Positions 2,840 to 37,063 of a stretch of 57,998 bases of DNA are shown here, in pieces. A program made the translations under genes and the position numbers. The DNA lies in assembly GCA_049320945.1 (NCBI GenBank), contig JBMOQT010000278.1, positions 1-57,998 of the forward strand, read 5' to 3'. Position 1 is the first letter of the stretch; each line of letters opens with the position of its first letter. Below the pieces are notes generated by a model. The model searched no databases and was not told the origin of the DNA. It worked only from the letters and a program-made list of their open reading frames with translations. Origin of the DNA: Pseudomonadota bacterium (lineage in GTDB: Bacteria; Pseudomonadota; Gammaproteobacteria; Burkholderiales; Rhodocyclaceae).

Positions 2840-4828
<1,989 letters not shown>

Positions 4829-4842
4829 TTCAAACCCCCTTT

Positions 4843-4915
4843 ACCACAGAGACACAGAGGAAGCACAGAGAATGGTTCTTCAGGAAGTTCCTCTGGGTCT
4901 CTGTGCCTCTGTGGT
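4843..4915 (-). repeat. long imperfect intercistronic hairpin built from CACAGAG-type repeats (pccB-pccA spacer)
   Basis: ACCACAGAGACACAGAGG...(loop)...CCTCTGTGCCTCTGTGGT. About 17 bp pair with one mismatch, plus a second CACAGAG/CTCTGGG segment. Confidence 0.5.
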
Positions 4916-4924
4916 TAATGGTTT

Positions 4925-6449
<1,525 letters not shown>

Positions 6450-6457
<8 letters not shown>

Positions 6458-7478
6458 GGTGATTCTCCGAACTTGGTTTTTGCAAATAGCCCAGCAGCCG
6501 GTAGGCGGCGGCTGCGGGCGTCATGCTGCCCTGGGCCACCGCCCGCTGGATCTCGTCCAGGTGGCGCCGCACATGGGGATGGCGGCGGAAGTGCAGGCGC
6601 AGGCCGCTGTCGATCAGGGTCCACATCCAGTCCACCGCCTGGCGCCGGCGCTTGGCCTCGAATTCGCCGCTGTCGACCATGATCTTGCGGTAGCGCTCGA
6701 TTTCGCCCCACAGCAGATCCATGCCCTCGTGGCGCAAGGCGCTCACCATGACCACCGGCGGACGCCAGTCGGGCGAGGCGGCGCGCAGCAGCGACAGGGC
6801 GTTGCGCAATTGGTGGCGCGCGAACTCCGCCGCCTTGGGATCGATGTCGGCCTTGTTGATGGCGACGATGTCGGCCAGCTCGACGATGCCCTTCTTCATG
6901 CCCTGCAGTTCGTCGCCGGCGTTGGGCAGCTGGAGCAGGACGAAAACATCCACCATGCCCGCCACCGCCGTCTCCGACTGGCCCACACCCACGGTCTCGA
7001 CGATGATCACGTCGAATCCGGCGGCCTCGCACACCAGCAGGGCTTCGCGCGTCTTCTCCGCCACGCCGCCCAGGCTGCCGCCCGAGGGCGAGGGGCGGAT
7101 GAAGGCGTCATGGGACCGGGACAGGCGCTCCATGCGCGTCTTGTCCCCCAGGATGGAGCCGCCGGAAATGGCGCTGGAGGGGTCCACAGCGAGCACCGCC
7201 ACCTTGTGGCCGCGCTCGATGAGATGCAGGCCCAGGGCCTCGATGAAGGTGGACTTGCCGGCACCGGGGGCGCCGGAGATGCCGACCCGGATGGAGCGGC
7301 CGGTGTGGGGGAGCAGGGCCTCCAGCAGCCCCTGGGCGCGCACCTGGTGATCGGCGCGGGTGGACTCCACCAGGGTAATGGCCTTGGCCAGGGCCCGGCG
7401 CTTGTGGGCCAGCACGCCGTCCACCAGCGCCCGGTCGGCGTCGTCGCGCAGGGCCTGGCCGGTCACGGTGTCGTTCAT
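6450..7478 (-). CDS. meaB: methylmalonyl-CoA mutase-associated G-protein chaperone MeaB/ArgK
   Basis: P-loop [13 protein letters not shown] and an NKAD motif. Its stop overlaps the pccB start by 8 nt. Confidence 0.9.
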
Positions 7479-7494
7479 CCGGGCCGCCGCCGGG

Positions 7495-9654
<2,160 letters not shown>

Positions 9655-9771
9655 GGGACACCTCTTTCGTGCAATCGCTGATGGATACCGGGCGCTTGAC
9701 ATCCCGTGACGTTAATAATACGTTATCCATAATTATGAATGCAAGAGGGGGGATTGGCCTCCCGAAGTAAC

Positions 9772-10461
9772 ATGATGGTCAGCCGCATAAAGCAACCCGC
9801 CCTGTACGAGGAAGTGGCCGAGCGCCTGCGCCAGCGCATTTTCCGCCATGAGCTGGCGCCGGGCGCCTGGATAGACGAGCAGGCCTTGGCCGAGGAATTC
9901 GGCATCAGCCGCACCCCCCTGCGGGAAGCCCTCAAGGTGCTGGCGGCCGAAGGCCTGGTGACCCTGAAGCCGCGCCGTGGCTGCTACGTCACCGAGCTGT
10001 CGGAGCAGGACCTGGACGAGATCTTCGATCTCATGGCCCTGCTGGAAGGCCGCTGCGCCGCCGAGGCGGTGCGCAGGATGGGCGCCGGGGCGCTGGCGCA
10101 GCTGGAGCGGCTGCACGACGAGCTGGAGCGGGCGGCGGCCGCCGGCGACATCGACCGCTTCTTTGAAGCCAACCAGGGCTTTCACTTAACCCTGCAGCAG
10201 ATCGCCGGCAACCGCTGGCTGCTGCAGGTGATCCAGGACCTGCGCAAGGTCATGAAGCTCAACCGCCACCATTCCCTGTTCCTGGAAGGGCGGCTGGAGC
10301 AGTCCCTGGAAGAGCACCGGGCCATCATGGAAGCGATCCGCGACCGGGACGCCGCCCGGGCCGAGGAGGCCATGCGCGCCCACCTGCGCTCGGGGCGACG
10401 GGCGCTCAGCCGCATGCAGGCGGCGGCTACAACGCCAGCCCATCACGTCAGCTACGAATAG
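9772..10461 (+). CDS. GntR/FadR-family transcriptional regulator (FCD domain)
   Basis: wHTH LAEEFGISRTPLREALKVLAAEGLV followed by an FCD-type helical domain. The start is ambiguous (9739, 9772 or 9775). It is divergent from mcm. Confidence 0.8.
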   Translation: MMVSRIKQPALYEEVAERLRQRIFRHELAPGAWIDEQALAEEFGISRTPLREALKVLAAEGLVTLKPRRGCYVTELSEQDLDEIFDLMALLEGRCAAEAVRRMGAGALAQLERLHDELERAAAAGDIDRFFEANQGFHLTLQQIAGNRWLLQVIQDLRKVMKLNRHHSLFLEGRLEQSLEEHRAIMEAIRDRDAARAEEAMRAHLRSGRRALSRMQAAATTPAHHVSYE

Positions 10462-10524: not shown

Positions 10525-10779
10525 ATGGCTAAGGCTTGGGCATTGCAGGATGCCAAGAACCATTTCAGCGAAGTAGTGGACCGCGCCCTGCAGGACGGCC
10601 CCCAAACGGTGACGCGCCATGGCCGCGAGGCGGTCGTGATTGTCTCCGCCGAGGAGTTCAAGCGCCTGACGCAACCGGAGGAATCCCTGGCGGACTTCTT
10701 CCGCCGCTCGCCCCTGCATGGCCTCGAGCTGGAGATCGAGCGTCAGCGCGATACCGGCCGGCGGGTGGATCTTGGCTAG
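10525..10779 (+). CDS. vapB: type II antitoxin (Phd/YefM-fold, VapB-like)
   Basis: 84 aa. MAKAWALQDAKNHFSEVVDRA...VIVSAEEF is a typical antitoxin N-terminus. AGGAGG lies upstream. Confidence 0.8.
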   Translation: MAKAWALQDAKNHFSEVVDRALQDGPQTVTRHGREAVVIVSAEEFKRLTQPEESLADFFRRSPLHGLELEIERQRDTGRRVDLG

Positions 10780-11218
10780 GACCATCGCCTGTGACGGCGG
10801 CTATCTGCTCGACACCTGCGTCCTGTCGGAGCTGGTCAAACCGGCGCCTGACCGCGGCTTGATCGGATGGCTGGAAGCAACCGATGAGCGGCGCCTGTAT
10901 CTGAGCGCCCTGACCCTTGGCAAGCTCGCCAAGGGCGTCGCCCGCCTGGCAAGCGGCGAGCGTCAGCGCCGTCTGCAGACCTGGCTGGACGAGGATCTCT
11001 CCCGGCGCTTCGTCGGGCGTATCCTGTCCGTAGACCGGCACGTCGCCCTGCGCTGGGGCGAGCTGCAGGCGCAGGCGGAAAGGCGCGGCCGGCCCATGCC
11101 GGTCATCGATGCCCTGCTCGCCGCCACCGCCGCCGTCCATGCCCTCACGGTCGTCACCCGCAACGGCGGCGACATGGCTGAGAGTGGCGTCACCACCGTC
11201 AATCCCTGGAGCCCTTGA
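10772..11218 (+). CDS. vapC: PIN-domain ribonuclease toxin VapC (FitB-like)
   Basis: YLLDTCVLSEL (first acidic PIN residue)...TVVTRNGGDM. There is no in-frame ATG near the domain start. I place the start at TTG 10772, overlapping the vapB stop by 8 nt. The start is uncertain. Confidence 0.7.
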   Translation: MARTIACDGGYLLDTCVLSELVKPAPDRGLIGWLEATDERRLYLSALTLGKLAKGVARLASGERQRRLQTWLDEDLSRRFVGRILSVDRHVALRWGELQAQAERRGRPMPVIDALLAATAAVHALTVVTRNGGDMAESGVTTVNPWSP

Positions 11219-11223
11219 GATCC

Positions 11224-12006
11224 ATGTCCGGAAAAATCACCACCAGGATCCAGGACCGCATCGCCCTCGTCACCCTGGACAACCCGGCCAAGCGCAATGC
11301 CCTGTCCGCCGCCATGTGGGAGGAGCTGGCGGCCGTGTTCGGCAGGCTGTCGGCGGACACGGAACTGCGCTGCGTGGTCATCCGCGGCGCCGGCCAGGAC
11401 TTCGCCGCGGGCGGGGACATCGCCGAGTTTCCGGAGGTGCGCGGCACCCGCGAGAAGTGCCTGCATTTCCACCAGGTCACGGTGGGCAATGCTCTGCGCG
11501 CCATCGACCAATGCCTGCACCCGACCGTGGCCCTGATCCGCGGCAACTGCGTCGGCGGCGGGCTGGAGATCGCCGCCCAGTGCGACTTGCGCATCGCCGG
11601 CCACTCGGCGCGCTTCGGCGCCCCCATCGGCAGGCTGGGCTTCACCATGGCCCACACGGAGCTGGCCAACCTGGTGGCGCGGGTCGGTCCGGCGGTGATG
11701 CTGGAGATCCTGCTGGAGGGCCGCCTCATGGGCGCCGACGAAGCCTACCGCAAGGGCCTGGTGACGCGGGTGGTGCAGGATGCGGATACGGAGGAGGAAG
11801 CCCTGGCCACCGCCCGGCGCATCGCCGCCGGCGCGCCCCTGGTGGCGCGCGCCCACAAGAAGCTGGTGCGCCGCCTCGCCTTCCGGGCGACACCGCTGGA
11901 CGAGGGGGAGATCGCCGAGAACTTCGCCTTCCTCGACAGCGCCGACTACCAGGAGGGCCTGCGCGCCTTCCTGGCCAAGGAGACGCCCGAGTTCCAGGGG
12001 CGCTGA
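11224..12006 (+). CDS. enoyl-CoA hydratase/isomerase (crotonase) family protein
   Basis: IALVTLDNPAKRNAL...VVIRGAGQDFAAGGDI crotonase motifs. The alternative start is 11215. Confidence 0.8.
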   Translation: MSGKITTRIQDRIALVTLDNPAKRNALSAAMWEELAAVFGRLSADTELRCVVIRGAGQDFAAGGDIAEFPEVRGTREKCLHFHQVTVGNALRAIDQCLHPTVALIRGNCVGGGLEIAAQCDLRIAGHSARFGAPIGRLGFTMAHTELANLVARVGPAVMLEILLEGRLMGADEAYRKGLVTRVVQDADTEEEALATARRIAAGAPLVARAHKKLVRRLAFRATPLDEGEIAENFAFLDSADYQEGLRAFLAKETPEFQGR

Positions 12007-12074
12007 GTGTCCTTGATTTGGCCGGGGCGCGCTGCTAGCGTGAAATGGTCCTCCAACCCCAACAGGAGACCGCC

Positions 12075-12854
12075 ATGGCTGCAGTATGCCCCATCGGTTT
12101 CGACAAGGAAAAACTGAAGGCCGAGGTGCGCGCCACCTATGCCCGGGTGGCGCAGAATCCCGAAGGCGATTTCCACTTTCACCGGGGTCCCGAATACGCC
12201 GCCCGACAACTGGGCTACGACCTGGCCGAGTTGCGCACTCTGCCCGAGTCGGCCACCGCGCCCTTCGCCGGCGTCGGCAATCCCTTCAGGGCGGGCCAGC
12301 TGCCCTTGGGCGCCCGGGTCATCGACATCGGCTCGGGGGCGGGCATGGACTGCCTGCTGGCGGGCCGGCGCGTCGGTCCCACGGGCCGCGTCACCGGCAT
12401 CGACATGACCGAGGCCATGCTGGAGCGGGCGCGGCGCGCCGCCCGGGAAGCGGACATGCCTCACGTGGGCTTCGAGCGCGGCGACATGACCGAGCTGCCC
12501 CTGCCGGACGCCAGCGTGGACGTGGTCATCTCCAACGGCGTGATCAACCTCGCCCCGGACAAGCCGGCGGTGTTCCGCGAGCTGTACCGCGTCACCCGCC
12601 CCGGCGGCCGCCTGCAGTTCGCCGACATCGTCATCGAAGTCGAGCTGTCGGAAGCGGCGCGCAATGACATCGACTTATGGACAGGATGAATCGCCGGCGC
12701 TCTGCAGGTTGCAGAGCTCCTCGAAGTGATGCGGGAAGCGGGCTTCCGCGACGTCGCCGTGGGCGATTATTTCGATCCCTTCCTGGGCACGTCGAAAGAG
12801 AAGACGGCGCGCAAGTACGGCGTGCGCGGCGCCAACTTCGTTGCCTGGCGCTGA
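12075..12854 (+). CDS. SAM-dependent methyltransferase (ArsM/UbiE-like) with in-frame UGA read as selenocysteine (U205)
   Basis: The track ORF stops at TGA 12687-12689. The same frame stays open to TGA 12852-12854. SAM motif VIDIGSGAGMD. A SECIS-like hairpin follows the UGA, and selA/selB/tRNA-Sec follow immediately. The start is ATG 12075 (AGGAG 6 nt upstream) or ATG 12045. Confidence 0.75.
12699..12717 (+). promoter_or_regulatory. bacterial SECIS-like hairpin
   Basis: GCTCTGCA-GGT-TGCAGAGC, a perfect 8-bp stem. It begins 9 nt after the UGA, and its GGU apical loop is about 18-20 nt from the UGA. Confidence 0.65.
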
Positions 12855-12877
12855 GCCGCGCCGGGGCGGGTTGAGGC

Positions 12878-14275
12878 GTGGACGCCCGCCCGTCCTATGC
12901 GCTGCTGCCCTCCGTCGACGCGCTGCTCAACGTTCCCGCCGTCCAGGCCCTCAGCGCCGCCCACGGGCGCAGCACAGTGCTGGGCGCGGCGCGCGGGCTG
13001 CTGCAGGAATGCCGCGAGCGCCTGGGCCGCGAGCCCGACTGGCAGCCGCCCACCCTGGACGAGTTGGTCCCGGTCCTGGGCGCGCGCCTGGAACAGGCTA
13101 GCCGGCCCTCCCTGCGCCGGGTCTTCAACCTTACCGGCACGGTGCTGCACACCGGCCTGGGCCGCGCGCCCCTGCCCCAGGAGGCGGTCGAAGCGGTGGC
13201 CGCGGCCATGGCCCATGCCTGCAACCTGGAGGTGGATACGGCCTCGGGGCGGCGCGGCTGGCGCGACGCCCACGTGGCGGCGCTGCTGTGCGAGCTGACC
13301 GGGGCGGAAGCCGCCTGCGTGGTGAACAACAACGCCGGCGCCCTGTTCCTCGCCCTCAACACCCTGGCCCTGCGCAAGCGGGTGCCCGTGTCCCGGGGCG
13401 AGCTGATCGAGATCGGCGGCTCCTTCCGTCTGCCGGATATCATGGCGCGGGCCGGCTGCCGCCTGGTGGAAGTGGGCACCACCAATCGCACCTACCTGTC
13501 CGACTACCGGGACGCCCTCGACCCGCGCACCGCCCTGCTGCTCCAAGTGCATCCCAGCAACTTCGCCATCCAGGGTTTCGCCTGCCGGCCCGAGACCCGG
13601 GAGCTGGCCCAGCTCGCCGCCGCCCACGGCCTGCCCCTGGTGGTGGACCTGGGCAGCGGCGCCCTGTGCGACCTGGCAGCCTATGGCCTGCCCCACGAAC
13701 CGACGCCCGGCGAGGCCCTGCGGGCGGGAGCGCAGCTGATCACCTTCAGCGGCGACAAGCTGCTGGGCGGTCCCCAGGCCGGTCTCATGGTCGGTCGGGC
13801 CGAGCTGGTGCGGCGCATGGAGCGCAATCCCCTCAAGCGCGCCCTGCGGGCCGACAAGATGACCCTGGCGGCGCTGGAGGCGGTGTTGCGCCTGTACCGC
13901 CAGCCGGAACGGCTGGCCGAGCGCCTGCCGACCTTGCGCCTGCTCAGCCGCCCGCGCGCCGCCATCGAAGAGCAGGCGCAGCGCCTGCAACCGGTCCTAC
14001 AACAGGCCCTGCCCGGCTGGCGGGTGACCGTGGCGGCCTGCGACAGCCAGATCGGCACCGGCGCCCAGCCCCTGACGCGCCTGCCCAGCGCCGCCCTGGA
14101 GGTGCGTCCGGCCGAGGGGGACGGCGGGCTCGACACCCTGGCGGCGCGGCTGCGGGCGCTGCCCGTGCCCGTGTTCGGGCGCATCCAGGAGGGCGCCCTG
14201 ATCCTGGACCTGCGCTGCCTGGACGACGAGGCGCTGCTCGCCGAGCAGTTCCGGCGGCTGGGCGCGACGCCATGA
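12878..14275 (+). CDS. selA: L-seryl-tRNA(Sec) selenium transferase
   Basis: GTG start. The product begins [21 protein letters not shown]-lysine region [13 protein letters not shown]. 465 aa. Confidence 0.9.
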
Positions 14276-16152
14276 TCGTCGGCACCGCGGGCCATATCGA
14301 CCACGGCAAGAGTGCCCTGGTGCGCGCCCTCACCGGCATGGACCCGGACCGGCTCAAGGAGGAGAAGGCGCGCGGCATCACCATCGACCTGGGCTTCGCC
14401 CACCGCCGGCTGGAGGACGGCGGCGTGGTGGCCTTCGTGGACGTGCCCGGCCACGAGCGCTTCATCCACAACATGCTGGCCGGCGCCGCCGGCATCGACT
14501 TCGTGCTGCTGGTGGTCGCCGCCGACGACGGCGTCATGCCCCAGACGCGCGAGCACCTGCACATCGTGGAGCTGCTGGGGGTGCGCCGCGGCGCCGTGGC
14601 CCTGACCAAGATCGACCTGGTGGATGCGACGCGGCGGCAACAGGTGGCGGAGCAGGCGGGCGCCCTGGCGCGCGCCGCCCTCGGCCCCTGCCCGGTGTTT
14701 CCCTTGTGCGCGCCACGTGGCGAAGGAGTGGACGCCTTGTGGCGCCACCTGGCGGCGGCGGCGCGCGCCACCCCGCCTCGGGCCGTGGGCGGCCGCTTCC
14801 GCCTGGCCGTGGACCGCTGCTTCGCCCTGGCGGGCCATGGCACCGTGGTCACCGGCACGGTGTTCGCGGGTCTCGCCCGCGTCGGCGACCAGGTGGCCGT
14901 CGCCCCTGAGGGCCTGGGCGCGCGCATCCGCGCCATCCACGCCCAGGGGGAGCCGGTGGCGGAAGCGCGCGCCGGCATGCGCTGCGCCCTCAATCTGGCC
15001 GGCCCCCGCGTGGATCAGCACGCCATCCGGCGCGGCGACTGGATCGTCGCCGCCCCCGCGCCCGAGCCGGTGGAGCGCTTCGATGCGCGCCTGCGCCTGC
15101 TCGCCGAGGAAGCGCGGCCCCTGGACCACTGGACGTCGGTGCACGTACATCTGGGCGGCGCCGATCTGACCGGACGCATCGCCCTGCTGCAAGGGTCCCC
15201 CCTGGCACCGGGGGACGAGGGGCTGGTGCAGGTGGTGCTGGAGCACCCGACTCATGCGGTGGCGGGCGATCGCTTCGTGGTGCGGGATCAGTCGGCCCGG
15301 CGCACCCTGGGGGGCGGCCGGGTGCTCGATCCCTTCCCGCCCGCCCGGCGCCGGCGCACGCCGATGCGCCTGGCCCAGCTCGCCGCCTGGGAGGGGCAGC
15401 CGGCGGCCATCGCCGCCGCCCTGGCGCAACTGCCGCCCTACCGGCTGGACAAGAGACGTTTCGAGAGCGCCTGCAACCTGGACCCGCCCGAAGCCGCCGC
15501 CCTGTGGGCAGACGGCAGCTGGCAGGCGCTGGCGGGAGGCACGATCATGGCGTCGGCGGCCCACTGGCAGGCCCTGGGCCGGGAGGTGCTGGCGGCCGTG
15601 ACCGCCGCACCGCTGCCCGCCGCCGAGCTGTTCGCCCGGCTGGCGCGGCCCTGGGGCCGGCCCCTGTTCGACGCCTGCATCGCCGCCCTGGTGCGGGAGG
15701 GGCGCATCGCCCGCGCCGGCGCGGCACTGGTGCTGCCCCAGCGTGTAGCCGCGACACCGGCCCGGGACGACGCCTGGCAGGACATCGAGGCACTGCTGGC
15801 GGCCCAGCCCCTGCGCCCCATGGGCGTGGCGGAACTGGCCGTCCAGTCGCGCCTGCCCCAGCGCGCCGTCGCAGCGGCGCTGGCAGCGGCGGTGAGGGAG
15901 GGCAAGGCGGTCCAGGTGGCGCCCGGCCATTACCTGCTGGCCTCCGCCCTGGCCCGCTTCGCCCGCTGCGCCGAAGAGCTGGGGGCGGCGGGCCGCGGCT
16001 TCACCCTGGCGGAATTCCACCGGCGCAGCGGCTGCGGCCGCCGGGCCGCGGTGGCGGTGCTCGAATACTTCGACCGCTGCGGCTACACTGGGCGCCAGGG
16101 CGAGGCGCGCGTCCTGAAGCGCGGCTTCGCCGCGCTGCTCGAAAAGACTTGA
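14272..16152 (+). CDS. selB: selenocysteine-specific translation elongation factor
   Basis: ATG 14272 overlaps the selA stop (ATGA). [23 protein letters not shown]-domain plus C-terminal winged-helix extensions. The upstream part of track ORF 13288..16152 is out-of-frame overlap of selA. Confidence 0.9.
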
Positions 16153-16153
16153 C

Positions 16154-16248
16154 GGAAGAGACCCGCTCCCGGTGGGGCGGCCGGCCTTCAAAGCCGCGAG
16201 AGGCTGTCAGCCAGTCTCAGGTGGGTTCGACTCCCACTCTCTTCCGCC
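16154..16248 (+). tRNA. selC: tRNA-Sec (anticodon UCA at 16188-16190)
   Basis: 8-bp acceptor stem GGAAGAGA/TCTCTTCC, 6-bp D stem CGCTCC/GGGGCG with a 4-nt loop, CTTCAAA anticodon loop, long variable arm, T arm GTGGG-TTCGACT-CCCAC and discriminator G. It starts 1 nt after the selB stop. Confidence 0.85.
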
Positions 16249-17034
16249 CTACTGGGCCGTCCAGCCGCCATCCACCGGCAGCGCCGCGCCGGTGATGCCG
16301 GTAGCGGCCTCCGAGCACAGGAAAACCACCGTGTCGGCGATCCAGGCGGCCGGCATGAGTATGCCGTTGGGCTGCTTCTCGGTGACCAGGTCGCGGATCG
16401 CCTGCTCCCGATCCAGTCCCTTGGCGGCGGCCCGCGCCTGGATCTGGGGCTCCAGGATGGGCGTTTCGGTCCACCCGGGGCACACGGCGTTTACCGTGAT
16501 GCCCTCGCGCGCCGTCTCCAGCGCCACCACCCTGGTCAGCCCCACCAGCCCGTGCTTGGCGGCGCAATAGGCGGCCTTATTCACCGAGGCGACCAGGCCG
16601 TGCACCGAGGCGATGTTCACGATGCGCCCCCAGCCGCCGGCACGCATGAGGGGAACCGCCTGCCGCACGAGGCGGAAGGGCGCCGTGAGGTTGATGGCCA
16701 GGATGGCGTCCCACTTCTCCGGCGGGAACTCGGCCACCGGCGCCGTGTGCTGGATGCCCGCGTTGTTTACCAGCACGTCCAGCCGACCCCAGCGCTGGTG
16801 CACCCGCGCCACCAGGGCATCGGCCTGGACGCCGTCGGCGAGATCGCCGGGGAAGAACTCGCAGGCCACGCCATGCTCCCGCGCCAGGACCTCGGCCTGG
16901 CTCCGGCCTTCCTCCTCGCTGCACAGGCCGTGCAGCGCCAGCGCCGCTCCCTGGCGGGCAAGCGCCCGGGCGATGGCCGCGCCTATGCCCTGGGTCGAGC
17001 CGGTCACCAGGGCGATCCTGCCTTCAAGCATCAT
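16249..17034 (-). CDS. bdhA: 3-hydroxybutyrate dehydrogenase-type short-chain dehydrogenase
   Basis: ALVTGSTQGIGAAIA Rossmann motif and YCAAKHG catalytic motif. ATG 17034 is preceded by GGAGGA; the track start 17049 is a TTG. Confidence 0.8.
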   Translation of the reverse strand: MMLEGRIALVTGSTQGIGAAIARALARQGAALALHGLCSEEEGRSQAEVLAREHGVACEFFPGDLADGVQADALVARVHQRWGRLDVLVNNAGIQHTAPVAEFPPEKWDAILAINLTAPFRLVRQAVPLMRAGGWGRIVNIASVHGLVASVNKAAYCAAKHGLVGLTRVVALETAREGITVNAVCPGWTETPILEPQIQARAAAKGLDREQAIRDLVTEKQPNGILMPAAWIADTVVFLCSEAATGITGAALPVDGGWTAQ

Positions 17035-34040: not shown

Positions 34041-34252
34041 GGGATCCCCCGCCTGTGCCGTCAGGCCGGCATCCTGAACCGGTAGGTTCAGTGTGGCTGC
34101 GTTCCGGTCACCGTAGGCGCTTCCGACGGAGGGATGCGCTCAAAAGTGACGCTTGAGTCCGCGGCCTATGCCAGATAGTTGGTTCAAGGAATGTATGGCC
34201 TTGACCAACACCGCAGGGGAAATCGGTGGGCGACCAACCGCGAGGCAGGGGC
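34041..34252 (-). ncRNA. ssrS: 6S RNA (ends approximate)
   Basis: Lies immediately downstream of zapA, as in the classical zapA-ssrS arrangement. The closing stem CCCCUGCCU/AGGCGGGG pairs the two ends. An internal 3'-side hairpin CUGAACC-uacc-GGUUCAG resembles the E. coli UUGAACC-aag-GGUUCAA element. Confidence 0.6.
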
Positions 34253-34904: not shown

Positions 34905-35117
34905 CTGGAGGCGCAACGAGTCCCAAGGTGCCTACGCGGCGTTCCGCCGCAGGGTTAAACGGGAATGAGGTAAGTAGGCGCTTACAGGTGCCATGAAGCC
35001 TCAGCTGCCCCCGCAACGGTAAGCAAGCGCGGGCGCGCCAACCACGCCACTGGGCAACCAGCCTGGGAAGGCGGCGCGTCAAGACTTGCGAGCCCGGATA
35101 CCGGCCTTCGGACCCAC
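34905..35117 (+). promoter_or_regulatory. cobalamin (adenosylcobalamin) riboswitch
   Basis: Core elements read directly: GGGUUAAACGGGAAU, GCUGCCCCCGCAACGGUAAG, GCCACUG, GGGAAGGC and a B12-box-like AGCCCGGAUACCGGCC. It lies upstream of a TonB-dependent receptor. Confidence 0.8.
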
Positions 35118-35248
35118 ATGCGGAACTGCCGCGGGGAGCGGCGGCCGAATGCGGACCCGTCCCTTTCGACCCTCAGCTTCCTCCGGCAGTTTCATGTCGC
35201 CAATCTTTCCGGCGGCGGGGACGCGCGCCGGGAATACAGGGAGCAACC

Positions 35249-37063
<1,815 letters not shown>

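What the first reader, a model, noticed from the sequence alone, without database searches (positions are those of the whole stretch)
12075..12854. Hidden selenoprotein: in-frame UGA in a SAM methyltransferase that the ORF track truncates
The track ORF ends ...ARNDIDLWTG at TGA 12687-12689. The same frame then runs open for 54 more codons (IAGALQVAELLEVMREAGFRDVAVGDYFDPFLGTSKEKTARKYGVRGANFVAWR, stop at 12852-12854). That tail reads like the normal C-terminus of an ArsM/UbiE-type methyltransferase. In the Cys-containing relatives I remember, this position is the Cys of a ...(Y/W)(A/T)G-C-(V/I)(A/S)GA... motif, so UGA replaces a functional Cys. Nine nt after the UGA there is a perfect 8-bp hairpin, GCTCTGCA-GGT-TGCAGAGC (12699-12717). 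Its G-rich apical loop lies about 20 nt from the UGA, which is bacterial SECIS geometry. The Sec machinery (selA, selB, tRNA-Sec) starts 23 nt after this gene. Methyltransferase-type selenoproteins have, as far as I recall, only been predicted computationally from metagenomes. None has been characterised biochemically.
Basis: partly seen in the sequence, partly recalled or inferred. Interest (0 to 1): 0.85.

Follow-up and report, generated by a model that had tools for sequence, protein, structure and literature searches.

The report
Selenocysteine-containing ArsM-like methyltransferase gene
The "stop" codon at 12687 almost certainly encodes selenocysteine in a 259-residue arsenite-methyltransferase-like enzyme that gene callers cut to 204 residues; this type of selenoprotein is already catalogued, so it is a solid but not new kind of finding.

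Summary
One frame runs ATG 12075, TGA 12687-12689, 54 more codons, stop 12852-12854. selA, selB and tRNA-Sec follow 23 nt later.

The selenoprotein reading is strongly supported:
- In 80 related loci from at least six phyla, the aligned codon is TGA in 62 and TGC/TGT in 18. It is never TAA or TAG.
- The tail stays open and is under purifying selection.
- The 8-bp hairpin after the UGA is kept through compensatory changes in TGA forms and is absent in Cys forms.
- A confident structure model of a 66%-identical full-length relative places the last two core β-strands in the tail.

Sec205 aligns with the As(III)-binding Cys224 of CmArsM (Cys206 of human AS3MT).

The novelty claim is overstated. 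"Arsenite methyltransferase" (motif UxxG) is a listed selenoprotein family, and NCBIfam has models for fused Sec-containing versions.

This clade differs from canonical ArsM in three ways. The other two arsenic-ligand cysteines are Val and Gly. It scores below every NCBIfam cut-off. Its recurrent neighbours are DsrE-like genes, mddA and sel genes, not ars genes. Its substrate is therefore probably a sulfur or selenium species rather than arsenite. That last step is inference.

The parts
12064..12069 (+). Shine-Dalgarno-like AGGAGA, 5 nt before the ATG
   Evidence: Read directly from the sequence. Homologs start at the equivalent M-A-A-V-C-P, which supports ATG 12075 over the upstream ATG 12045 listed by the ORF tool.
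12075..12686 (+). Codons 1-204 of the methyltransferase: N-terminal region with the invariant HFHRG motif, the SAM-binding DIGSGAG motif and the SNGVINL motif
   Evidence: Pfam Methyltransf_31/11/25. NCBIfam best hit is NF008823 arsenite methyltransferase at 236.6 bits, below the cut-off of 263. 118 of the 120 closest database proteins are roughly 204-aa truncations ending at this point.
12687..12689 (+). UGA read as selenocysteine (residue 205)
   Evidence: The aligned codon is TGA in 62 of 80 related loci and TGC/TGT in 18, never TAA or TAG. It aligns with Cys224 of CmArsM in ...LYGE-C-LGGAL.
12690..12854 (+). 54-codon C-terminal tail plus the true stop codon (TGA 12852-12854)
   Evidence: The frame is open in the related loci, mostly for 54-61 codons. 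pN/pS is 0.44 against 0.30 for the body, and GC3 is 0.81. In an AlphaFold2 model of a 66%-identical full-length relative (pLDDT 95.1) this part forms helix 212-222, strand 225-233, helix 242-247 and strand 251-258.
12699..12717 (+). SECIS apical hairpin: 8-bp stem GCUCUGCA/UGCAGAGC with a GGU loop that starts 17 nt after the UGA
   Evidence: 90.7% of cells are paired across 58 distinct TGA-form sequences, against 33-52% when the partner is slid. 4 of 8 pairs show compensatory changes. There are 55 double-change cells against 19 in shuffles (0 of 500 shuffles reach this). In this register 7.25 of 8 pairs form in TGA forms and 4.17 of 8 in Cys forms. The apex resembles E. coli fdhF (UGCA-GGUC-UGCA, 18 nt after its UGA).
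12878..14275 (+). selA (L-seryl-tRNA(Sec) selenium transferase), 23 nt downstream of the methyltransferase stop
   Evidence: TIGR00474, 555.8 bits against a cut-off of 267.9.
14272..16152 (+). selB (Sec-specific elongation factor); its start overlaps the selA stop by 4 nt
   Evidence: TIGR00475, 361.7 bits against a cut-off of 242.25.
16154..16248 (+). tRNA-Sec (anticodon UCA)
   Evidence: ARAGORN. Rfam RF01852, 70.7 bits against a gathering score of 47.

Best explanation
The gene at 12075-12854 encodes one 259-residue class I SAM-dependent methyltransferase of the ArsM/AS3MT fold, and codon 205 (UGA) is translated as selenocysteine.

How the recoding works (inferred from the established bacterial mechanism): the hairpin at 12699-12717 acts as a SECIS. 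It recruits SelB carrying Sec-tRNA(Sec) to the ribosome paused at the UGA. All three dedicated components (selA, selB, tRNA-Sec) are encoded directly downstream, probably in the same transcript.

Shown here:
- the Sec/Cys pair at residue 205;
- exclusive use of TGA at that position;
- a coding tail that supplies the last two beta-strands of the fold;
- covariation in the hairpin;
- presence of the machinery.

Inferred chemistry: Sec205 occupies the position of the arsenic-ligand Cys224 of CmArsM / Cys206 of AS3MT, which is taken to lie next to the SAM methyl group. It is the only Cys/Sec conserved across the family. The enzyme therefore most likely holds a soft, selenophilic substrate through a single Se-X bond and transfers a methyl group to it.

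The other two arsenite ligands are Val67 and Gly155. The recurrent neighbours are DsrE-like sulfur carriers, MddA, sulfide:quinone-reductase (SQR)-like and rhodanese genes rather than ars genes. I judge the substrate more likely to be a sulfane sulfur/selenium or thiol/selenol species (about 0.4) than inorganic arsenite (about 0.25). The confidence given below refers to the selenoprotein identity, not to the substrate.
For: - Sequence and frame.
- Codon at residue 205: 62 of 80 related loci have TGA and 18 have TGC/TGT, none TAA/TAG. They come from Betaproteobacteria, Chloroflexota, Methylomirabilota, Alphaproteobacteria, Myxococcota, Acidimicrobiia and others.
- At least three separate Sec/Cys switches. 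For example, Cys-form L045 is 76% identical to Sec-form L042 but at most 52% identical to any other Cys form.
- Hairpin covariation, and its absence in Cys forms.
- Tail under purifying selection with coding GC3.
- Structure: AF2 model with pLDDT 95.1 places two core strands after residue 205. The top Foldseek hits are CmArsM, CrArsM and human AS3MT.
- PDB sequence alignment gives U205 = Cys224, G155 = Cys174, V67 = Cys72. The roles of these cysteines as As ligands are taken from PMC3877260.
- selA/selB/tRNA-Sec.
- Neighbours: DsrE-like genes within 360 nt in 13 loci, five of them themselves TGA-containing. MddA (333-339 bits, cut-off 270) is directly upstream of Cys forms in at least 8 loci from several lineages. 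MtoX lies downstream in L084.
Against: - There is no experimental evidence for Se incorporation.
- selD was not found in the 58-kb window (the query was an E. coli SelD sequence written from memory).
- The window's hairpin alone is not thermodynamically exceptional (z = -0.88), and no Rfam family matched it.
- Stem columns overlap conserved codons (G-A-L..A-E), so part of the conservation is protein-driven.
- For the substrate inference, each neighbour type occurs in only 6-16% of loci. The MddA link concerns mainly the Cys clade, which is about 50% identical to this protein. The window itself has none of these neighbours.
- The invariance of Gly155 and Val67 in the 80 loci is partly by construction, because the loci were retrieved with the patterns FAGVGNPF and SNGVINL[AT]P.
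- A single Sec plus external thiols could still bind arsenic species. According to PMC3877260, DMA(III) needs only one ligand.
Confidence: 0.9

Rival explanations
1. It is a genuine arsenite methyltransferase. Sec205 simply replaces the Cys224-equivalent arsenic ligand, and the protein detoxifies or volatilises arsenic like ArsM.
For: - The best NCBIfam and PDB matches are all ArsM/AS3MT.
- The catalogued selenoprotein family with the same UxxG motif is named arsenite methyltransferase.
- Se-As bonds are strong (general chemistry).
Against: - The Cys174 and Cys72 equivalents are Gly and Val. As(III) is bound by three cysteines and MAs(III) by two (PMC3877260).
- All family members tested score below the NF008823 cut-off: 194-250 bits against 263.
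- No recurrent ars genes were found among the neighbour clusters. Sulfur-related neighbours were found instead.
Confidence: 0.25
2. The TGA is a true stop. The product is a 204-residue truncated methyltransferase or a pseudogene, and the downstream frame is open by chance in GC-rich DNA.
For: - Gene callers end the ORF there, and 118 of the 120 nearest database proteins are about 204 aa.
- Long spurious ORFs are common at 68% GC.
Against: - TGA, never TAA or TAG, is kept at this codon in 62 loci across phyla, and Cys is found there in 18 others.
- The tail shows pN/pS of 0.44.
- The tail forms two core beta-strands of the fold.
- The hairpin covaries.
- The Sec machinery is adjacent.
Confidence: 0.02
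3. The UGA is read through without selenocysteine, for example by near-cognate Trp or Cys insertion, and the hairpin merely stimulates read-through.
For: Two database relatives carry Trp (P0002) or Gly (P0003) at residue 205. P0003 is a true GGA codon with the hairpin still present.
Against: - The alternative residue in natural full-length relatives is Cys in 18 of 18 genome loci. This is the signature of Sec, not of Trp read-through.
- A dedicated selA-selB-tRNA-Sec set lies 23 nt downstream.
- The apex and spacing match the SelB-binding fdhF element.
- The W and G variants are single short metagenome contigs, each one nucleotide from TGA.
Confidence: 0.03

Closest known systems
Selenoprotein family 'arsenite methyltransferase' (motif UxxG; representative WP_011987699.1; Fomenko et al. 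2007, as listed in PMC9312934 and PMC13188914)
   Same: ArsM-type SAM methyltransferase with Sec in a U-x-x-G motif. Here the motif is U-I-A-G, at the Cys206(AS3MT)/Cys224(CmArsM) position.
   Different: The window protein scores below the NF008823 cut-off (236.6 against 263). I could not obtain the representative sequence, so I cannot say whether it also lacks the other two cysteines or belongs to the same clade.
CmArsM / CrArsM / human AS3MT (PDB 4FR0, 6CX6, 5EVJ, 8XT7)
   Same: Same fold: Foldseek E of 1e-17 to 2e-19 with 30-35% identity. The SAM motif is conserved, as is the ...LW/Y-x-x-C-(L/I)-(G/A)-G-A-L segment.
   Different: - Cys72 is replaced by Val67 and Cys174 by Gly155.
- The N-terminal Cys region is replaced by an invariant HFHRG motif.
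- There is no ~100-residue C-terminal domain.
- Sec replaces Cys224.
NCBIfam fused selenoproteins NF041537 (ArsM/AhpD), NF041536 (ArsM/DUF2284) and NF047649 (methyltransferase/UXPK-star); Haft & Tolstoy 2025 as cited in PMC13188914
   Same: The methyltransferase domain aligns over about 220 residues at 195-226 bits. The UxxG motif is the same.
   Different: The window protein is a stand-alone 259-residue enzyme with one Sec and no second domain. Its scores are far below the cut-offs of 460-575 bits.
E. coli fdhF SECIS
   Same: A stem-loop directly after the UGA. Its apex is UGCA-GGU(C)-UGCA, and its loop starts 17-18 nt after the UGA.
   Different: - A 3-nt loop here against 4 nt in fdhF.
- No obvious bulged U here.
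- The lower stem is only weakly predicted.
- SelB binding is untested.
Thiol/sulfide S-methyltransferases MddA, MddH and MddM (PMC11445057, PMC12904073)
   Same: Possible functional analogy, namely SAM-dependent methylation of H2S or methanethiol. mddA is the immediate upstream neighbour of the Cys-form relatives.
   Different: There is no sequence evidence of membership. MddA is a membrane protein of another fold, and MddH/MddM are described as UbiE/UbiG-type. No activity data exist for this family.

Membership tests
Bacterial selenoprotein (SelB/SECIS-dependent UGA recoding) | In-frame UGA that aligns with Cys in homologs | tested here: met
   18 of 80 related loci have TGC/TGT at the aligned codon. 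It also aligns with Cys224 of CmArsM.
Bacterial selenoprotein (SelB/SECIS-dependent UGA recoding) | UGA specifically (not UAA/UAG) conserved in orthologs, with the frame continuing under selection | tested here: met
   62 loci plus the window have TGA, with no TAA or TAG, and the tails are open. Tail pN/pS is 0.44.
Bacterial selenoprotein (SelB/SECIS-dependent UGA recoding) | Stem-loop immediately 3' of the UGA with a G-containing apical loop at SECIS distance | tested here: met
   The helix at 12699-12717 is supported by covariation and is absent in Cys forms. Its spacing is 17 nt, against 18 nt in fdhF. No SECIS-specific predictor was available, and Rfam gave no hit.
Bacterial selenoprotein (SelB/SECIS-dependent UGA recoding) | selA, selB and tRNA-Sec in the genome | tested here: met
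   All three lie at 12878-16248.
Bacterial selenoprotein (SelB/SECIS-dependent UGA recoding) | selD (selenophosphate synthetase) in the genome | tested here: inconclusive
   tblastn found no hit in the 58-kb window. The rest of the genome is not available.
Bacterial selenoprotein (SelB/SECIS-dependent UGA recoding) | Selenium present in the protein | not testable with these tools
   This needs 75Se labelling or mass spectrometry.
Catalogued selenoprotein family 'arsenite methyltransferase' (UxxG) | Sec in a U-x-x-G motif of an ArsM-type domain | tested here: met
   The motif is U205-I-A-G208. The family motif is taken from PMC13188914.
Catalogued selenoprotein family 'arsenite methyltransferase' (UxxG) | Score at or above the NF008823 cut-off (263 bits) | tested here: not met
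   The window protein scores 236.6 bits. Four diverse relatives score 194-250 bits.
ArsM/AS3MT arsenite S-adenosylmethionine methyltransferase | Class I SAM methyltransferase fold closest to ArsM | tested here: met
   phmmer against the PDB gives 1.6e-30 to 5EVJ. Foldseek's top 13 hits are ArsM/AS3MT. The modelled protein was the 66%-identical relative P0002.
ArsM/AS3MT arsenite S-adenosylmethionine methyltransferase | As(III) ligand at Cys224 (CmArsM) / Cys206 (AS3MT) | tested here: met
   Present as Sec205.
ArsM/AS3MT arsenite S-adenosylmethionine methyltransferase | As(III) ligand at Cys174 (CmArsM) / Cys156 (AS3MT) | tested here: not met
   Gly155 in SNGVINL aligns with the Cys of SNCVxNL. 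It is Gly in all 81 family members examined, although the retrieval pattern enforced this.
ArsM/AS3MT arsenite S-adenosylmethionine methyltransferase | Third ligand at Cys72 (CmArsM) / Cys61 (AS3MT) | tested here: not met
   Val67 in FAGVGNP aligns with the Cys of FYGCGS.
ArsM/AS3MT arsenite S-adenosylmethionine methyltransferase | Arsenic-resistance gene context (arsR/arsC/acr3/arsB) | tested here: not met
   No ars-like cluster appears among the recurrent neighbour clusters that were annotated. DsrE-like, MddA, SQR-like, ArsR-rhodanese, MBL-fold (metallo-beta-lactamase) and OsmC genes were found instead. Not every cluster was annotated.
NCBIfam fused ArsM selenoproteins (NF041537, NF041536, NF047649) | A second Sec-containing domain (AhpD, DUF2284 or UXPK-star) and a score above the cut-off | tested here: not met
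   The protein ends at residue 259 with no extra domain. It scores 226, 200 and 195 bits against cut-offs of 510, 575 and 460.
MddH/MddM-type H2S/methanethiol S-methyltransferases | Sequence membership in the MddH or MddM clade; methanethiol-dependent DMS production | not tested
Only descriptions were read.

The most novel reading that the evidence does not exclude
This stand-alone clade is marked by the VGNP, SNG and HFHRG motifs and a single conserved Sec/Cys. On this reading it is not an arsenite methyltransferase. It is a previously unassigned chalcogen methyltransferase. Sulfane sulfur or selenium would be handed over by a DsrE-like carrier and held on Sec/Cys205 as a Se-S(e) adduct. SAM would then methylate it to give methanethiol or methaneselenol, which MddA converts to DMS or DMSe. 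In the window's organism the enzyme is wired to its own selA-selB-tRNA-Sec module. It is the only candidate selenoprotein gene in the 58-kb window, though other selenoprotein genes elsewhere in the genome cannot be excluded.
Probability: 0.25. Interest if true: 0.7.

Novelty: new member of a known kind. Interest (0 to 1): 0.4.

Why it matters
- Annotation: this gene and 118 of its 120 closest database relatives are recorded as roughly 204-residue truncated "methyltransferase domain-containing proteins". No NCBIfam model reaches its cut-off for the clade. A widespread selenoprotein clade in groundwater and soil Betaproteobacteria, Chloroflexota, Methylomirabilota and others is therefore systematically mis-called.
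- Biology: the enzyme keeps only one of the three arsenic ligands of ArsM, and that one is Sec. Its gene neighbours point to sulfur/selenium trafficking and methanethiol metabolism. The clade is a tractable place to ask what Sec does in a methyltransferase active site, and whether "ArsM-like" genes counted in arsenic-cycling surveys really act on arsenic.
- Practical use: the compact methyltransferase-selA-selB-tRNA-Sec module offers a natural four-gene cassette for heterologous expression tests.

Tried and rejected
1. I suspected that Trp (P0002) and Gly (P0003) at residue 205 were TGA translated under genetic codes 4 and 25. This is rejected for P0003, whose contig L081 has a real GGA codon with the hairpin intact.
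2. Single-sequence thermodynamics of the hairpin are not significant (z = -0.88), so I relied on covariation instead.
3. Rfam at gathering thresholds found no SECIS family at the site, only tRNA-Sec, a cobalamin riboswitch and 6S RNA.
I modelled the 66%-identical full-length relative P0002 instead.
5. The promoter/terminator scan of 11800-16500 gave nothing usable.
6. selD was not found in the window.
7. The split mtoX next to a relative in L084 looked like a possible second Sec codon, but it is a frameshift.
8. The hypothesis that the family is MddH-like could not be tested. The papers describe MddH/MddM as UbiE/UbiG-type and do not mention ArsM.
9. Haft & Tolstoy 2025 (PMC12013261) and Carrion et al. 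2015 are not held. No held paper mentions both mddA and arsenite methyltransferase.
10. sel-gene adjacency is not a conserved feature of the family. It occurs in only 5 of the 62 related TGA loci.
Full report
**Observation**

The sequence is exactly as described.
- An ATG at 12075, preceded by AGGAGA at 12064-12069, opens a frame that reaches TGA at 12687-12689 after ...ARNDIDLWTG.
- The same frame then continues for 54 codons to TGA at 12852-12854.
- Nine nucleotides after the first TGA lies the perfect hairpin GCTCTGCA-GGT-TGCAGAGC (12699-12717).
- Twenty-three nucleotides after the second TGA, selA begins (12878-14275; TIGR00474, 555.8 bits).
- selB follows (14272-16152; TIGR00475, 361.7 bits), then tRNA-Sec (16154-16248; ARAGORN, and Rfam RF01852 at 70.7 bits).
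- A composition scan shows that 12687 is the only TGA in the 58-kb window with coding-like GC3/GC2 on both sides.

**Is the UGA a selenocysteine codon?**

Database proteins. A search with the U-to-C joined protein returned 120 top hits, of which 118 are roughly 204-residue proteins ending at the same WTG. This is what automatic gene calling would produce on an unrecognised Sec codon.

Genome loci. A scan of one genome per species retrieved 80 related loci.
- Read in frame, the codon aligned with residue 205 is TGA in 62 loci and TGC or TGT in 18. It is never TAA or TAG.
- The frame beyond it stays open, mostly for 54-61 codons.
- The TGA forms come from Betaproteobacteria, Chloroflexota/Dehalococcoidia, Methylomirabilota, Alphaproteobacteria, Myxococcota, Thioalkalivibrio and others.
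- The Cys forms fall into at least three separate groups. One of them (L045) is 76% identical to a Sec form but at most 52% identical to any other Cys form. Sec/Cys exchange has therefore happened repeatedly.

The tail is coding. Against 22 relatives its pN/pS is 0.44, compared with 0.30 for the 60 codons before the UGA. Its GC3 is 0.81 in frame, against 0.72 and 0.45 out of frame.

The tail is needed for the fold. An AlphaFold2 model of the 66%-identical full-length relative P0002, built with 42 aligned sequences, is confident (pLDDT 95.1, pTM 0.92). It shows helix 212-222, strand 225-233, helix 242-247 and strand 251-258 after residue 205. A 204-residue product would lack two strands of the core sheet.

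**The hairpin**

On its own the window's 54-nt fold is unremarkable for its composition (z = -0.88), and Rfam has no matching family. The comparative evidence is strong.
- In 58 distinct TGA-form sequences, aligned without gaps, the eight pairs (columns 13-20 with 24-31, equal to 12699-12706 with 12710-12717) are formed in 90.7% of cells. Slid registers give 33-52%.
- Four pairs show changes on both sides.
- There are 55 double-change cells against 19.2 ± 4.8 in shuffles, and 0 of 500 shuffles reach the observed value.
- Some compensation links a synonymous third position (Leu CUG to CUC) to an amino-acid change opposite (GCA to GGA). Protein constraint alone does not predict this.
- In the same register the 18 Cys forms make 4.2 of 8 pairs, against 7.25 of 8 in the TGA forms.
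- The apex UGCA-GGU-UGCA starts its loop 17 nt after the UGA. E. coli fdhF, whose SECIS I confirmed in 5,419 of 5,426 genomes, has UGCA-GGUC-UGCA with the loop 18 nt after its UGA.

I conclude the gene is a selenoprotein gene, with confidence of about 0.9. What is missing is experimental Se incorporation, and selD, which is not in the window.

**What the protein is**

- Pfam gives generic class I methyltransferase domains.
- The best NCBIfam hit is NF008823, arsenite methyltransferase, at 236.6 bits against a cut-off of 263.
- It also matches the methyltransferase part of three curated selenoprotein models (ArsM/AhpD, ArsM/DUF2284 and methyltransferase/UXPK-star), far below their cut-offs.
- Four diverse relatives behave the same way, at 194-250 bits on NF008823.
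- PDB sequence and fold searches put CmArsM, CrArsM and human AS3MT first.

The residue alignment to CmArsM is informative.
- Sec205 aligns with Cys224 (Cys206 in AS3MT).
- Cys174 (Cys156 in AS3MT) is Gly155, in SNGVINL.
- Cys72 (Cys61 in AS3MT) is Val67, in FAGVGNP.

According to PMC3877260, arsenite is bound by three cysteines, methylarsenite by two and dimethylarsenite by one. Position 205 is the only Cys/Sec column conserved across the family. An invariant HFHRG motif (residues 34-38) occupies the N-terminal region, which does not align to the crystallised ArsMs. One caveat applies: the 80 loci were fished with FAGVGNPF and SNGVINL[AT]P, so the invariance of Val/Gly within that set is partly by construction.

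**Context**

In the window, the methyltransferase-selA-selB-tRNA-Sec block sits between unrelated genes. Upstream are an enoyl-CoA hydratase, a PIN-domain gene, a GntR regulator and a methylmalonyl-CoA mutase/propionyl-CoA carboxylase cluster. Downstream is a short-chain dehydrogenase.

Among relatives, sel genes lie within 8 kb in five TGA loci. These are L003, L016, L018 and L019, in different orders, and L079 with selD. No Cys locus has them.

The other recurrent neighbours are sulfur-related.
- DsrE-like genes lie within 360 nt in 13 loci. In five of these the DsrE-like gene itself carries one or two in-frame TGA (V-U-x-x-C/U).
- MddA, the H2S/methanethiol S-methyltransferase (NF045656, 333-339 bits, cut-off 270), lies directly upstream on the same strand of Cys forms. 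This holds in Thiocapsa, Thioalkalicoccus, Thioalkalivibrio denitrificans and two unclassified proteobacterial MAGs. It also lies nearby in L030 and in the Sec-form L021.
- Methanethiol oxidase MtoX with SCO1/MauG lies directly downstream in L084.
- SQR-like flavoproteins, ArsR-rhodanese fusions, MBL-fold proteins and OsmC each occur in 5-7 loci.
- No recurrent ars genes were seen.

Each association covers only a minority of loci, and none is present in the window itself.

**Mechanism**

The recoding mechanism is the standard bacterial one and is well supported.

For the chemistry I infer the following. Sec205 sits where ArsM's Cys224 binds arsenic, which I take to be beside the SAM methyl group. 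It holds a soft substrate through a single Se-X bond for methyl transfer. Two of the three arsenite ligands are missing, and the neighbourhood is sulfur/selenium-related. I therefore rank a sulfane sulfur/selenium or thiol/selenol substrate (about 0.4) above inorganic arsenite (about 0.25). This ranking is inference, not demonstration.

**Comparison with what is known**

Sec-containing ArsM-type methyltransferases are established in the literature. "Arsenite methyltransferase" (UxxG, WP_011987699.1, Fomenko et al. 2007) appears among the experimentally verified families in two reviews (PMC9312934 and PMC13188914). Fused double and triple selenoprotein versions have NCBIfam models attributed to Haft & Tolstoy 2025.

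What I could not find described, within the limits of the held library, is threefold:
- this stand-alone clade with only one conserved Cys/Sec;
- its systematic truncation in public records;
- its linkage to mddA and DsrE-like genes.

No held paper contains both "mddA" and "arsenite methyltransferase". I could not read Haft & Tolstoy 2025 or obtain the reference sequence, so I file the gene as a new member of a known kind. The possibility of a functionally distinct variant is stated as the novel case.

**Verdict**

Interest is 0.4.

Noticed in passing
L024, L028, L049, L061, L062, L070, L077, L082/L083 (upstream of the methyltransferase match); L030; L021: mddA (methanethiol S-methyltransferase, NF045656 at 333-339 bits, cut-off 270) sits directly upstream, on the same strand, of the Cys-form relatives in several gammaproteobacterial lineages. 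It also lies near one Sec-form locus. No held paper links mddA with ArsM-like genes.
   Followed up: partly
L051:1074-1433, L071:8805-9164, also L033, L055, L060: A DsrE-like gene next to the Sec-form methyltransferase itself contains one or two in-frame TGA codons (V-U-x-x-C / V-U-x-x-U). These loci therefore carry two adjacent selenoprotein genes.
   Followed up: partly
L084:4991-8251: A Cys-form relative is followed by methanethiol oxidase mtoX (NF052453) and a SCO1/SenC-MauG gene. mtoX is split into two ORFs by a frameshift at 5660-5668, which is not a Sec codon.
   Followed up: yes
L081:620-720: One metagenome relative (P0003) has GGA (Gly) instead of TGA at codon 205 while keeping the downstream hairpin. 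Another (P0002) has Trp. Each is one nucleotide from TGA. These could be recent loss-of-Sec mutations or sequencing errors.
   Followed up: partly
window 12174-12188 (residues 34-38): An invariant H-F-H-R-G motif occurs in the N-terminal region of the whole family, where bacterial ArsM proteins carry cysteines. It may be part of the substrate site. Distances in the model could not be measured.
   Followed up: no
window 34909-35123 (+): Cobalamin riboswitch (RF00174, 100.3 bits), upstream of a 604-codon ORF at 35249-37063.
   Followed up: no
window 34042-34222 (-): 6S RNA (RF00013, 67 bits).
   Followed up: no
window 2840-10461: A cluster of propionyl-CoA carboxylase subunits, MeaB and B12-dependent methylmalonyl-CoA mutase on the minus strand, with a divergent GntR/FCD regulator. 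Malonyl-CoA decarboxylase is at 261-2291.
   Followed up: no
window 10718-11218 and 11215-12006: A PIN-domain gene overlaps by 4 nt the start of the enoyl-CoA hydratase gene that precedes the methyltransferase. No antitoxin partner was looked for.
   Followed up: no
L003, L016, L018, L019, L079: Where sel genes neighbour the methyltransferase in other genomes, their order differs: MT-selB-tRNA-selA; selA-selB-tRNA about 5 kb upstream; an inverted tRNA-selB-selA; MT-selA-selB-tRNA; and MT-selD. This suggests repeated independent linkage rather than one inherited operon.
   Followed up: partly
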